A stretch of 2,892 nt of DNA, taken from assembly GCA_042216335.1 (NCBI GenBank), contig JBDGTY010000059.1, forward strand, positions 1 through 2,892, read 5' to 3'. Within the stretch, counting starts at the first letter, position 1. Each line of letters begins with the position of its first letter. Source of the DNA: Candidatus Nanohalobium sp. (lineage in GTDB: Archaea; Nanohalarchaeota; Nanosalinia; Nanosalinales; Nanosalinaceae). This document shows, in pieces, positions 1-2,892 of the stretch. The position numbers were made by a program.

Positions 1-2892
1 ATCCGTAAAAGCCTCAATATCCTCTCTTCGAGACTGTAAATAGTCGCCGAGCATCCTCAACTGTTGAAGCATTTTTAGTCGTTCACCTTGTTCATGAATC
101 CGAATCCTGTGGCATTTAGTTCTCCAAGACCTGAGTCATAGGCCATCTGGATCAAGCGATACATTTCTCTGTTCGGGCATTCATATTCCAGTTCCCAGGT
201 CGTTCCTATTACTGTCGTGGTTCCTTCAGCGTATTTCAGGGGAACTGCTACTTCTTTCCGTGGCTTGTATCCTGTGAAGTAAGGCCCTTCCGGCGCTTCC
301 CTATTGTAGTATGATTCGTATTTGTGCGCCAGGTTTTCCTCTATCCTGTCGATGAATGCCTGAGAGTTATGCTCCTGCTTCCAGTAGATTTGCTGGTGAT
401 CGCCTTCAATACCGTATTCTGCAGCCTTGTCTTTATCCATCCTGACAACTATCGGAGTGCCTGTAATCATTTTTCCTTTCTCTCCGGGATCGACAGAAAT
501 CTGGTAAACATCTTTCACTGAGAACTGCTGTTCTCCGAACTCCAGTCTACTATCTTTCGCTTGTTCAGCAAATTTTTCTACTACTTTCTGGCTACTACTT
601 GCCAGGATAAAAGTCCTGCTATCGGCCCTACTCGCATCTTTCGGCGGAAATACATTTGAGAAACTGAAGTATTTGAAAGGTCTGTTATCGTGAACATCAT
701 CCAATCCTGCCTCTTCAAGCTTTCTGTAGACTGCTCCCTGCAAATCAACGTGATAAGAAGGATTATAGGCTTGATCTTTGAGAGAATCAAGTTTTAGAGC
801 AACTCTCATATTTATTGTTTGAATAATGCGTTCTTTTATTCATATCGGCTGATCAAAAAAATAACCATTTGATCAAAAATTTAACCAGAAGAATAACTGA
901 AACGTTCTAATGGCCACATTCAGCACACAGAGAGCCCCGAGAGGGATTTGAACCCTCGACCTGCTCCTAGCTTGTGACCGTTTTTCTCAGTTTGGCAGTC
1001 ATTCCGTGAATGACTGATTGCGTGTGGAGCTGAGCGTAACCAGTCCTACAAGGGAGCTGCTCTAGCCAGGCTGAGCTATCGAGGCCTGATGTATAGTGGG
1101 GTTCTGTTAAGAGTTAAATAGTTGGGATTCTGCGGATATTTTATGCCGGTTTCAAGCCTGAGTGAACTGAGGGAAAAAGATATTGAAGGTGAAAGGATTG
1201 CTGTCGGTTTCAGGCCTTCCGGTTCTCTTCATGTCGGCAACCTGTTGACTATCACGTATGCAGCAGTCTTAGCGGATGAGCTGGATAAGGAGTTGGATTT
1301 GATGGTGTGTGATACTGACTGGAGTGCGCACATCCACGAGCATCACTTGCCGGATGAGAACCGTTGTATGAAGCTGTTCTTCGAGAGGGACTGTCCATGT
1401 GACTATCACTTAAACATCGCGGAGCATCGTTTGGATGAGATCTCGGAGTTCCTGGAAGTTCTGAAAGATGAGACTGTTGATTTCGAGCCCAGCTTTCTCT
1501 CAGACCTAGAAGACGAGGAGTACGATGAGGCCTTGAGGAACGTCCTGAATTCGATGGATGAGTTCGATGATGTTTTTGGAGGCGGTTTCAGGAGGAGGTA
1601 CAGGAGTCCTGTGGCCGCGGTGTGTGAGAGATGTGGTTTCTCCGATGCGAAGGGTTCCTCTTACTCCGGGGAGATGGACTTGCTGGTTTCTGCGTGCAGG
1701 AATCCGGAGTGCGACGCGGGCTTCATGGAGACCGAACTATCCGATCCGGAGAAAGGTGTTTACTACCTTGTCGATCCTGTGCGTGACCCGGGTAGAGACG
1801 TCGCAGTACATGTTTTCGGCGGAGATTACCGTGACGCGGAGAAGGAGATGAAGACTCCGAAAGTGGAAAAGGTTGAGAAGATCACGGAGCTGGCATGCGG
1901 CGAGTCCCCAGAGTACTTCCTGGCACCGATCATCACCGACGAGGACGGCCAGCCACTGTCAAAGTCACACGATACCGGAGTAACCGTGGATGAGATCGAT
2001 GATCTGGATGAGTTTGCCGAGAACCTGGTCGACAAAGTTAGAGAGTTAGTAAATGAAAGGAATGAGTTTGTTGTCCAGGATGAGCTTCTGGAGCGGGTTT
2101 AGTAGCGCTCCATGTTCTCCTCCACCAGATTACTCAGTCTTTCGTCAATCCCATATTTTTCTCTGATATGTTTAGAAGGCCAGTAAACAAGCTGCTCATC
2201 ATCTGTGGCTTTATCGTATTCTTCTACAGCCTTCTGTCCTCCTGCTACTGCTGATAGTTCCATCCAGTAGGACTGCATTTCAGACTTTAATTCATCACTC
2301 ATCGGAACGTCTCTTTGCTTGGCTACTTCTTCAGGTTGTGCCAGCAGTTTAAGAGACTCATCTACAGATACTCCTTCCGGAATCTCCAGGATTGTATTCA
2401 TCTCAGGTACTTCAGGGCCTCCTAGATCGAAGTTGTCTAGAGCATACTTTACACCCATCGTGGAAAAGAACTGTTTCTCCGGAGACCATACCGGCATGTC
2501 ATCTCCAGATCCGAGATATCCTCGACAGATCTCGGCAGCTACTGATCCTGCAAGTTCTGCAGTTGACATATCTGATGGCATCTCCATCTCAATTGCCGCA
2601 GGATCCACATAAACAGTATTTTCCATAGAATTATAGCTTAGGCCTGTTGGATTACCTCTGGCCTTTCTCTCTATCTCAGGCTTTTCCTGAATAGTAATCT
2701 CTGGATCAATATTAAACTCATTTGCCAGCCCAAAATACACTTCCGAAAACTGTTCCTGAAAGTCATCAAACGGAGGCATACGATATAATACGAACCAAAA
2801 AGTTAAATTGTTGTCACCTAAGGATGATTATGTCAGGTCTACGTCGTCTGGTGTGTCTGCGTCGGCTCCTCTGTCCTTGATTTCGCGTTCCA

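What a model noticed while it worked through the whole genome (the two positions that open the first line are those of the whole stretch)
1122..2102. Truncated class I lysyl-tRNA synthetase paralogue, member of a DPANN-wide mini-aaRS family
A 326-aa protein keeps the catalytic core of class I LysRS (a HIGH-type HVGN motif, a 4-Cys insertion, a KMSKS-type LSKS motif) but lacks the anticodon-binding domain. It is conserved in nanohaloarchaea. Sister forms that keep HLGN and KMSKS occur in Woese-, Pace-, Nano- and Aenigmatarchaeota, always beside a full-length LysRS. It is therefore a distinct paralogue family of unknown function.
Evidence so far: - Pfam PF01921 gives E=1.4e-8. - hhalign places it on the genome's own LysRS1 residues 40-309 with the motifs in register. 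- 152 homologues; the 120 listed are 300-345 aa. 77 columns are invariant in 28 sequences. - 15 of 30 relatives carry it. - Exhaustive HMM search: 106 hits, of which 103 are 411 aa or shorter. - The wider alignments keep the motifs. - 17 loci in other DPANN genomes. - A full-length LysRS1 is also present in G000 and in 4 of 5 other carriers. - In the tree the mini clade (90/88) is separate from LysRS1 (100/97). - The review PMC9437257 lists only class II LysRS paralogues.
(Added by a program. Inside this text positions count along the whole contig: contig position 1 is position 1 of the stretch shown here. "Call 12" and the like, gene names such as g00115 and contig names such as C1 are that model's own, and its searches are not shown. 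The text may have been shortened before it was handed on; [...] marks where a part breaks off. The agent that wrote the report below was given it as the finding of a first reader that could run no searches.)

Follow-up and report, generated by a model that had tools for sequence, protein, structure and literature searches.

The report
Stand-alone class I LysRS catalytic-core paralogue
This nanohaloarchaeal gene encodes a conserved, shortened copy of the archaeal lysine-tRNA ligase that keeps the ATP-using core but has lost the anticodon reader and rebuilt its amino-acid pocket, so it probably does an undescribed job rather than ordinary lysine charging.

Summary
The ORF 1122..2102 (+) is real. 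Its likely start is ATG 1143, giving 319 aa.

- **Motifs kept.** HIGH, the Cys4 knuckle and KMSKS are conserved.
- **Domain lost.** The anticodon-binding domain is absent, and no separate copy exists in the genome.
- **Pocket changed.** Four LysRS1-invariant pocket positions (1IRX E41, W218, H240, Y268) are replaced family-wide by T/S, Y/F, Y and G.
- **Selection.** The gene is under purifying selection (dN/dS 0.06-0.20).
- **Distribution.** It is present in 19 of 41 related genomes. It is rare in Nanoarchaeota, about 13 of 301.
- **Coexistence.** It sits beside a full-length LysRS of either class: class I in 2 and class II in 3 of 5 other carriers.
- **Literature.** No paper found describes a class I LysRS paralogue.

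The function is not shown. My best guess (0.4) is an ATP-dependent aminoacyl ligase acting on an RNA-type acceptor. A BshC/MshC-like small-molecule ligase is the main rival. A queuosine or archaeosine acceptor and a replacement of hypusination are not supported.

The scan found this family before on another genome (e1-4316869).

The parts
1143..2102 (+). Gene for the 319-aa stand-alone LysRS1-like catalytic core (mechanical ORF starts at TTG 1122; stop 2100-2102)
   Evidence: The called protein P0001 is 319 aa. Homologues start level with ATG 1143.
1230..1241 (+). HIGH-type motif HVGN (residues 30-33)
   Evidence: Read from the sequence. H30 and G32 are kept in 41 of 41 and N33 in 25 of 41 wide-family sequences.
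1308..1331 (+). CDTDWSAH block (residues 56-63). D57 aligns with the first Asp of the LysRS1 WDDYD motif.
   Evidence: D57 is kept in 39 of 41 sequences.
1623..1712 (+). Cys4 zinc-knuckle insertion (C161, C164, C185, C190), in register with the LysRS1 Cys pairs
   Evidence: Each Cys is kept in 38-40 of 41 sequences. They align with own LysRS1 C190/C193/C213/C216.
1758..1829 (+). Rebuilt pocket region: VYYLVDPVRD (206-215) and HVFGGDY (223-229)
   Evidence: Family-wide counts: Y208 stands for LysRS1 Trp, D215 (41/41) for Trp, H223 (39/41) for Glu, G227 (40/41) for Lys, and Y229 (37/41) for His.
1953..1967 (+). KMSKS-type loop PLSKS (residues 271-275)
   Evidence: K274 is kept in 41 of 41 sequences. 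The wider family reads KMSKS.
1114..1120 (.). TTAAATA box between the tRNA gene and the ORF. It is a likely shared TATA element, and it implies a leaderless mRNA starting near ATG 1143.
   Evidence: The box is present at the same place in 7 of 7 related intergenic regions shown. Its role as a promoter is inferred, not shown.
933..1085 (-). Divergent neighbour: tRNA-Thr(UGU) gene with a 78-nt intron
   Evidence: Rfam scores it at 49.4 bits. The fold z-score is -3.8. The same tRNA lies upstream of the gene in 9 of 12 related loci.

Best explanation
**What is shown.**
- The gene encodes a stand-alone paralogue of the catalytic (Rossmann plus CP/Zn-knuckle) core of class I lysyl-tRNA synthetase.
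- The ATP-binding signatures HIGH and KMSKS are conserved.
- The anticodon-binding domain is missing.
- The positions that are invariant in LysRS1 and line its lysine pocket are replaced by a different, equally conserved set.
- The gene is under purifying selection. It is dispensable in about half of its relatives. It coexists with a complete LysRS.

**What is inferred.**
- It still forms an aminoacyl-adenylate from ATP and an amino acid.
- That amino acid is either not lysine or is held differently from lysine. The pocket stays rich in invariant Asp, so a cationic substrate is the best guess.
- The aminoacyl group is passed to an acceptor other than the anticodon-selected tRNA-Lys.
- The most likely acceptor is an RNA of tRNA type. 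It would be recognised through the retained acceptor-side CP/Zn module, as in anticodon-domain-less synthetase relatives such as GluQRS.

I give the whole mechanism about 0.4. The part marked as shown I give about 0.9.
For: **Homology**
- hhalign of 41 family members against 5 LysRS1 gives 99.5%, E 5.8e-23, over 285 columns.
- Against the genome's own LysRS1 it gives 98.3%. Against its own GluRS it gives only 2.6%.

**Fold**
- The AF2 model of the window protein has pLDDT 83.2. The model of a non-halophile member has pLDDT 91.3.
- Model residues 5-319 cover chain residues 4-321 only.

**Catalytic motifs and pocket**
- H30, G32 and K274 are kept in 41 of 41 sequences, and each Cys in 38-40 of 41.
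- Pocket changes at 1IRX positions: E41 becomes T/S in 34 of 41, W218 becomes Y/F in 33 of 41, H240 becomes Y in 37 of 41, and Y268 becomes G in 34 of 41.

**Not a split LysRS:** no second copy of the LysRS1 C-terminal half is found in G000 at E<=1.

**Separate, old family:** LysRS1 (5 rows) and the mini family (41 rows) are split by a 100/100 branch. The LysRS1 of carrier genomes group with LysRS1.

**Selection:** dN/dS is 0.063-0.202 in the 12 of 28 pairs that are not saturated.

**Translation-linked neighbours**
- tRNA-Thr(UGU) lies divergently upstream in 9 of 12 nanohaloarchaeal loci, with a shared TTAAATA box.
- gatD..mini-gatE occurs in L027, L028 and L030.
- L13-S9-mini occurs in L029, and S2-enolase next to the gene in L035 and L036.
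- aIF5B-PUA-mini occurs in L033 and L034.

**tRNA dependence of the parent enzyme:** LysRS1 is one of four class I synthetases that need tRNA for amino-acid activation (abstract of PMC2034488, listing).
Against: - No assay exists. Neither the acceptor nor the amino acid is shown.
- The roles of 1IRX E41, W218, H240 and Y268 in binding lysine are recalled from the 1IRX paper, which I could not read here. Only their identity and their invariance in LysRS1 were checked.
- Translation genes are common in these tiny genomes. The three gatE-linked loci are close kin, so the context evidence is weak.
- The tRNA-Thr neighbour may be inherited synteny only.
- In this window the downstream neighbour is an orphan. 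Other neighbours vary: pyrH, isopentenyl phosphate kinase, Zn-ribbon.
- TGT was not found in G000, and in only 3 of 41 relatives. The one known acceptor type for such an enzyme, a 7-deazaguanosine, is therefore unavailable.
- The isoelectric points of non-halophile members are mixed, from 4.6 to 9.9. There is no clear nucleic-acid-binding signal.
Confidence: 0.4

Rival explanations
1. Small-molecule amino-acid ligase of the MshC/BshC type. The core activates an amino acid and joins it to an amine or hydroxyl of a metabolite, for example a compatible solute, a thiol precursor or a cell-envelope component.
Against: - There is no sequence link to BshC or MshC families. The Pfam scan of 41 members lists only aaRS families among the recurrent hits.
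- No biosynthetic partner genes recur beside the gene.
- The carriers are reduced DPANN genomes of 0.6-1.3 Mb with little biosynthesis. That last point is general knowledge and was not tested here.
- The neighbours, where informative, are translation genes.
Confidence: 0.25
2. Adenylate-only or regulatory paralogue. The protein binds ATP and an amino acid, or a tRNA, but transfers nothing. It would act as a sensor, a tRNA chaperone, or a maker of aminoacyl-adenylate or dinucleotide polyphosphate, like the LeuRS-I paralogue listed in the review.
For: PMC9437257 (passages read) lists LeuRS-I as producing leucyl-adenylates only. The gene is dispensable, being absent from the closed genomes G009, G013 and G020. 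N33 of HIGH varies, kept in 25 of 41.
Against: The near-invariance of a whole new pocket (D215 and D228 in 41 of 41, H223 in 39 of 41, Y229 in 37 of 41), of K274 (41 of 41) and of the Zn knuckle argues for full catalysis with a defined substrate.
Confidence: 0.15
3. Protein-modifying ligase, a class I analogue of PoxA/GenX. It would aminoacylate a translation factor or another protein.
For: The architecture parallels PoxA, a LysRS catalytic core without an anticodon domain (passages of PMC9437257). aIF5B and eIF2-alpha genes lie nearby in some loci.
Against: - Deoxyhypusine synthase is present in G000, and in carriers and non-carriers alike: 27 of 41 overall and 23 of 24 in the family. The enzyme therefore does not stand in for aIF5A hypusination.
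- No aIF5A gene was seen beside it.
- PoxA has a class II fold and this protein has a class I fold.
Confidence: 0.1
4. Back-up or specialised true lysyl-tRNA synthetase. It would charge tRNA-Lys without an anticodon domain.
For: It is the closest relative of LysRS1. JGI and UniRef name members 'lysyl-tRNA synthetase class I'.
Against: - It scores 22.7 bits against the 147.55 cut-off of the LysRS1 equivalog model.
- The four pocket positions are replaced.
- There is no anticodon domain, either in cis or in trans.
- A complete LysRS is present in all 6 carriers checked.
Confidence: 0.04

Closest known systems
Canonical class I lysyl-tRNA synthetase (LysK; PDB 1IRX; Pfam PF01921; TIGR00467)
   Different: - It ends where 1IRX residue ~321-329 lies. 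The stem-contact, helix-cage anticodon-binding and C-terminal domains are absent.
- Pocket positions E41, W218, H240 and Y268 are replaced.
- LysRS1-invariant R57, R235, W238, W242, E250, K254 and the GGS block are not kept.
- It scores far below the equivalog cut-off.
- It forms a separate clade.
GluQRS (YadB), glutamyl-queuosine tRNA-Asp synthetase
   Different: It derives from GluRS, not LysRS1. The GluQRS models score 15-22 bits against cut-offs of 250-277. Its acceptor, queuosine, needs TGT, which was not found in G000.
BshC / MshC (cysteine-adding enzymes of bacillithiol and mycothiol synthesis)
   Different: Identity to BshC is 8%. No Pfam link was seen. These are bacterial pathways with partner genes that do not appear near this gene.
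PoxA/GenX (class II LysRS paralogue that beta-lysylates EF-P)
   Same: It is a LysRS-derived catalytic core without an anticodon domain that was given a new acceptor (passages of PMC9437257).
   Different: The fold is unrelated, being class II. Here the hypusine pathway enzyme DHS is present regardless of whether the gene is present.

Membership tests
Class I LysRS (LysK) | Catalytic core homologous to LysRS1, with HIGH and KMSKS | tested here: met
Class I LysRS (LysK) | Helix-cage anticodon-binding domain and C-terminal domain | tested here: not met
   The protein has 319 aa, and the model covers 1IRX residues 4-321 only. No other copy of the LysRS1 C-terminal half is found in G000.
Class I LysRS (LysK) | Score above the curated equivalog cut-off (TIGR00467) | tested here: not met
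   It scores 22.7 bits against 147.55. It does pass the broader Pfam domain cut-off, 34.5 against 27.
Class I LysRS (LysK) | Lysine-pocket residues (1IRX E41, W218, H240, Y268; their roles are recalled, not read here) | tested here: not met
   All four are invariant in 5 LysRS1 sequences. In the family they are replaced by T/S (34/41), Y/F (33/41), Y (37/41) and G (34/41).
Class I LysRS (LysK) | Lys-tRNA-Lys formation | not testable with these tools
   This needs an enzyme assay.
GluQRS-type tRNA-modifying mini-synthetase | Class I core without an anticodon domain, beside a full synthetase | tested here: met
   This is a likeness of architecture only.
GluQRS-type tRNA-modifying mini-synthetase | Sequence membership (TIGR03838 / NF004314-5) | tested here: not met
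   It scores 15-22 bits against cut-offs of 250-277. hhalign against the genome's own GluRS gives 2.6%.
GluQRS-type tRNA-modifying mini-synthetase | Queuosine-type acceptor, which requires tRNA-guanine transglycosylase | tested here: not met
   PF01702 was not found in G000 (96% complete), and in only 3 of 41 relatives. The control found it in 14 of 14 genomes.
BshC/MshC small-molecule ligases | Fold likeness | tested here: met
BshC/MshC small-molecule ligases | Sequence membership and pathway partner genes nearby | tested here: inconclusive
   No BshC or MshC family appears among the Pfam hits of 41 members at E<=1. No glycosyltransferase or deacetylase partners recur. Whole genomes were not searched for them.
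PoxA/GenX | Class II catalytic fold | tested here: not met
   All top structural matches are class I synthetases.

The most novel reading that the evidence does not exclude
This would be the first class I LysRS-derived 'mini-synthetase'. It would be an enzyme largely confined to DPANN archaea that uses ATP to attach a non-lysine, probably cationic, amino acid to a tRNA or another translation component without reading an anticodon. That would make it a new aminoacyl modification or charging route, the class I counterpart of PoxA and GluQRS. A variant reading is that it is an evolutionary bridge between LysRS1 and BshC-type ligases.
Probability: 0.3. Interest if true: 0.85.

Novelty: new variant of a known kind. 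Interest (0 to 1): 0.6.

Why it matters
Truncated synthetase paralogues have repeatedly led to new chemistry. GluQRS led to a tRNA modification, PoxA to EF-P lysylation, and MshC to mycothiol. No class I LysRS paralogue is in the papers I could search. [quoted passage not shown]

This family has a conserved, rebuilt pocket and an intact ATP site, in organisms with minimal genomes. That points to a specific, selectable activity that is still unknown. It could bear on how DPANN symbionts tune translation or their dealings with hosts.

It is directly testable. Non-halophile members should express in E. coli, and one carrier genus has cultured representatives. The second point rests on source names and on general knowledge.

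Tried and rejected
**Hypotheses tested and not supported**
- Replacement of aIF5A hypusination: deoxyhypusine synthase is present in G000 and in carriers and non-carriers alike.
- Queuosine or archaeosine acceptor: TGT was not found in G000.
- Split LysRS with a separate anticodon domain: only the full LysRS1 matches its own C-terminal half.
- Replacement of GluRS: the genome has its own GluRS, at 242.9 bits.
- Fusion in G027 (602-aa frame): the upstream part is a stop-free, Arg/Gly/Pro/Val-rich read-through, which I take for a high-G+C artefact. A normal N-terminus lies inside it.
- Fused forms of 691 aa or more: none found. The tool calls this weak evidence.

**Partner by neighbourhood**
- The 226-aa downstream ORF was found in 0 of 40 relatives.
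- The 'amino acid kinase' neighbours are pyrH (L022, L023) and isopentenyl phosphate kinase (L017), so they are not one partner.
- The L037 asparaginase-like gene is not GatD by NCBIfam.

**Other library searches**
- Defence or phage origin: there is no PADLOC hit. The one PHROG hit is weak (3.2e-5) and of unknown function.
- A sequence search of the PDB with the nanohaloarchaeal profile is nearly blank. The best hit is GluRS at E 0.0073, and 1irx scores E 1.1.

**Tool steps that failed or were not run**
- The search for related loci with the wide alignment failed because no stretch was conserved enough. A narrower alignment worked.
- Expression: no RNA holder was listed, and read laying was not run.

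**Literature:** three searches for the LysRS1 pocket residues found nothing usable.

**Isoelectric points** of members are mixed and uninformative.
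Full report
**The gene.** The window is a whole 2892-base contig (C55) of a 1.02-Mb genome in 74 contigs, 96% complete. The ORF 1122..2102 (+) is there, at 326 aa from TTG. The protein on record is the 319-aa form starting at ATG 1143 (P0001, 100% identity). Homologues begin level with that ATG. A TTAAATA box at 1114-1120 lies 22 nt before the ATG and recurs at the same place in 7 of 7 related intergenic regions. 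I therefore take 1143 as the start of a probably leaderless mRNA. This is an inference.

G+C is 0.48-0.55 over the gene against 0.41-0.46 in the flanks. Among 28 pairs of 8 orthologues, 12 give a finite dS, with dN/dS of 0.063-0.202. The other 16 pairs are saturated. The gene is real and under purifying selection.

**What it is related to.**
- Pfam PF01921 matches at E 1.4e-8, 34.5 bits against a cut-off of 27, over residues 20-292. It matches 37 of 41 wide-family members at E<=1.
- The curated LysRS1 equivalog model scores only 22.7 bits against a cut-off of 147.55.
- With 41 sequences of the wider family it gives 98.3% against that one protein.
- Against an alignment of 5 LysRS1 it gives 99.5%, E 5.8e-23, over 285 columns.
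- Against the genome's own GluRS it gives 2.6% over 53 columns.
- A plain profile search of PDB sequences is nearly blank.

**Fold.** The AF2 model of the window protein has pLDDT 83.2 and pTM 0.87.
- Foldseek puts 1IRX first, at E 3.6e-11 and TM 0.63-0.69. GluRS follows at 2.6e-7.
- A second model, of a non-halophile member, has pLDDT 91.3. It repeats the order: 1IRX 22.1, BshC 17.7, CysRS 14.7, GlnRS 14.4, MshC 14.3, GluRS 13.9.
- BshC is second for both models (16.2, 16.2 and 17.7), well above GluRS or GluQRS (12.6-13.0).

**What is kept and what is changed.** The figures below are counts over 41 wide-family sequences.

Kept:
- H30 41, G32 41, N33 25.
- D57 39.
- The four Cys 38-40 each.
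- R214 37.
- G226 41, D228 41.
- K274 41.

The genome's own LysRS1 aligned to 1IRX gives E58=E41, W234=W218, H256=H240 and Y284=Y268. All four are invariant in the 5 LysRS1 sequences. I recall these as the lysine-contacting residues of 1IRX. I could not read that paper here, and three literature searches failed.

| 1IRX position | Replacement in the family |
|---|---|
| E41 | T 30, S 4 |
| W218 | Y 21, F 12 |
| H240 | Y 37 |
| Y268 | G 34 |

Other LysRS1 invariants are also replaced by new near-invariants. W242 becomes D215 (41), E250 becomes H223 (39), and K254 becomes G227 (40). The Thr of GITPSG becomes Arg or Lys in 33 of 41.

So the ATP site is intact and the amino-acid pocket is rebuilt and fixed. 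The protein stops just after the KMSKS helix. No second copy of the LysRS1 C-terminal half exists in the genome.

**The family and its range.**
- The word-indexed search finds 152 proteins, and the 120 listed are 300-345 aa. JGI and UniRef name some 'lysyl-tRNA synthetase class I', while NCBI calls them 'hypothetical'.
- The exhaustive search of 1.84 billion representatives finds 109 at E<=0.001, of which 57 are at <=1e-10. Of the 109, 105 are 411 aa or shorter. Two of the longer hits (495 and 527 aa) are true LysRS1.
- Source labels name Pace-, Woese-, Nano-, Aenigmat- and Micrarchaeota and Nanobdellota. A few bins carry 'Methanosarcinales' labels and one carries 'Campylobacterales'.
- Among 41 related genomes, 19 carry it, G000 included. 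That is 13 of the 23 good-quality genomes. It was not found in three closed genomes (G009, G013, G020).
- In a sample of 301 genomes of the phylum of G043, 86 match at E<=1e-8. Most of these are 500-600-aa frames matched only over the first ~200 model positions, which means LysRS1. By my reading 13 genomes have a mini-type frame of 435 aa or less reaching model position 288 or beyond, 7 of them at E<=1e-86. One of the 301 genomes is unpublished and enters only that tally.
- In a tree of 46 rows, the 5 LysRS1 and the 41 minis are split by a 100/100 branch. The LysRS1 of carrier genomes sit with LysRS1. The duplication is therefore old.
- Of 5 non-halophile carriers, 2 have a full LysRS1 and 3 have a class II LysRS above its cut-off and no full LysRS1. 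The gene does not depend on which LysRS the cell uses.

**Surroundings.** In the window the neighbours are as follows.
- A Cas6 gene lies at 75..809 (-).
- A tRNA-Thr(UGU) gene with a 78-nt intron lies at 933..1085 (-).
- A 226-aa orphan ORF lies at 2099..2779 (-). It was found in none of 40 relatives.

The tRNA-Thr(UGU) gene, with introns of 63-189 nt in 8 loci and none in L008, lies upstream of the gene in 9 of 12 nanohaloarchaeal loci. In six loci (L013 included, where ARAGORN calls the tRNA Ser) it sits within 57-67 nt of the ATG. This may be inherited synteny only.

Other nanohaloarchaeal neighbours vary. They include pyrH, isopentenyl phosphate kinase, a Zn-ribbon protein, and an OapABC cluster about 3 kb away.

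In non-halophile loci the neighbours are often translation genes:
- gatD..DUF1003..mini-gatE in three related loci, with 36-39 nt between the gene and gatE in the two loci (L028, L030) that reach gatE.
- L13-S9-mini in one locus.
- S2-enolase next to the gene in two near-identical loci.
- aIF5B-PUA-mini in two loci.

Such genes are frequent in these small genomes, so I treat this as a hint.

**Function.** Nothing is shown. I tested and dropped four readings:
- A stand-in for hypusination, because DHS is present regardless.
- A queuosine or archaeosine acceptor, because TGT was not found in G000.
- A split LysRS.
- A replacement for GluRS.

My best reading (0.4) is an active aminoacyl-adenylate-forming ligase that passes an amino acid to an RNA-type acceptor without reading an anticodon. 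It rests on three points: the intact ATP site, the retained CP/Zn module, and the tRNA dependence of LysRS1 activation (abstract of PMC2034488). The translation-linked context adds a hint. The BshC likeness keeps a small-molecule ligase as a serious rival (0.25).

**Novelty.** The review PMC9437257 (passages) lists only LysU, PoxA and LysX. [quoted passage not shown] AARS Online (passages) lists LysRS-I alone in its subclass. A search for six phrasings of 'LysRS paralog/-like/truncated' returned 9 papers. Six of them concern PoxA and EF-P. The other three hold a term only once or twice, and by title and abstract none concerns a class I LysRS paralogue. NCBIfam has no model that the protein passes. 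Short bacterial 'lysine--tRNA ligase family protein' clusters exist in the ESM Atlas. I did not test whether they are the same family. An earlier report of this scan (e1-4316869) reached the same reading on another genome, and my tests agree with it.

Noticed in passing
window 933-1085 (-): A tRNA-Thr(UGU) gene with a 78-nt intron that holds a 9-bp hairpin. Default ARAGORN missed it; Rfam and ARAGORN with introns allowed found it. Introns of 63-189 nt occur in the same tRNA of relatives.
   Followed up: partly
window 1086-1142: The 57-nt spacer between the tRNA 5' end and ATG 1143 carries a TTAAATA box. The box is conserved in 7 of 7 related loci, including one where the mini gene lies 386 nt further on. 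It is possibly a bidirectional promoter.
   Followed up: partly
window 75-809 (-): A Cas6 (Cas6b-like) endoribonuclease gene at the contig edge, at TIGR01877 E 8.5e-30 and PADLOC E 4e-61. No CRISPR array lies within the window.
   Followed up: partly
window 2099-2779 (-): A 226-aa acidic ORF with no Pfam, NCBIfam, PADLOC or PHROG match. It was not found in any of 40 related genomes, and its stop overlaps the mini gene's stop by 3 nt (2100-2102). It marks a strain-specific stretch beside a tRNA gene.
   Followed up: partly
window 850-887: Two tandem 18-nt copies, 89% alike, of an A-rich word beginning TGATCAAAAA. They lie between the Cas6 start and the tRNA 3' end.
   Followed up: no
G000 and 40 relatives: tRNA-guanine transglycosylase (PF01702) was found in only 3 of 41 nanohaloarchaeal genomes and not in G000. 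These organisms may therefore lack archaeosine.
   Followed up: no
L027, L028, L030: In Pace- and Woesearchaeota loci the mini gene sits between gatD and gatE. It runs in the same direction as gatE and lies 36-39 nt upstream of it, next to a DUF1003 gene.
   Followed up: partly
A1 columns 94-132 (after residue 84 of P0001): Six of 25 nanohaloarchaeal members carry a 19-20-residue insert rich in Ser, Glu and Lys between the CxC pair and the conserved His. One other member has a different insert just before it.
   Followed up: no
G041, G043, G045: Three DPANN carriers of the mini gene use a class II LysRS and have no full class I LysRS.
   Followed up: yes
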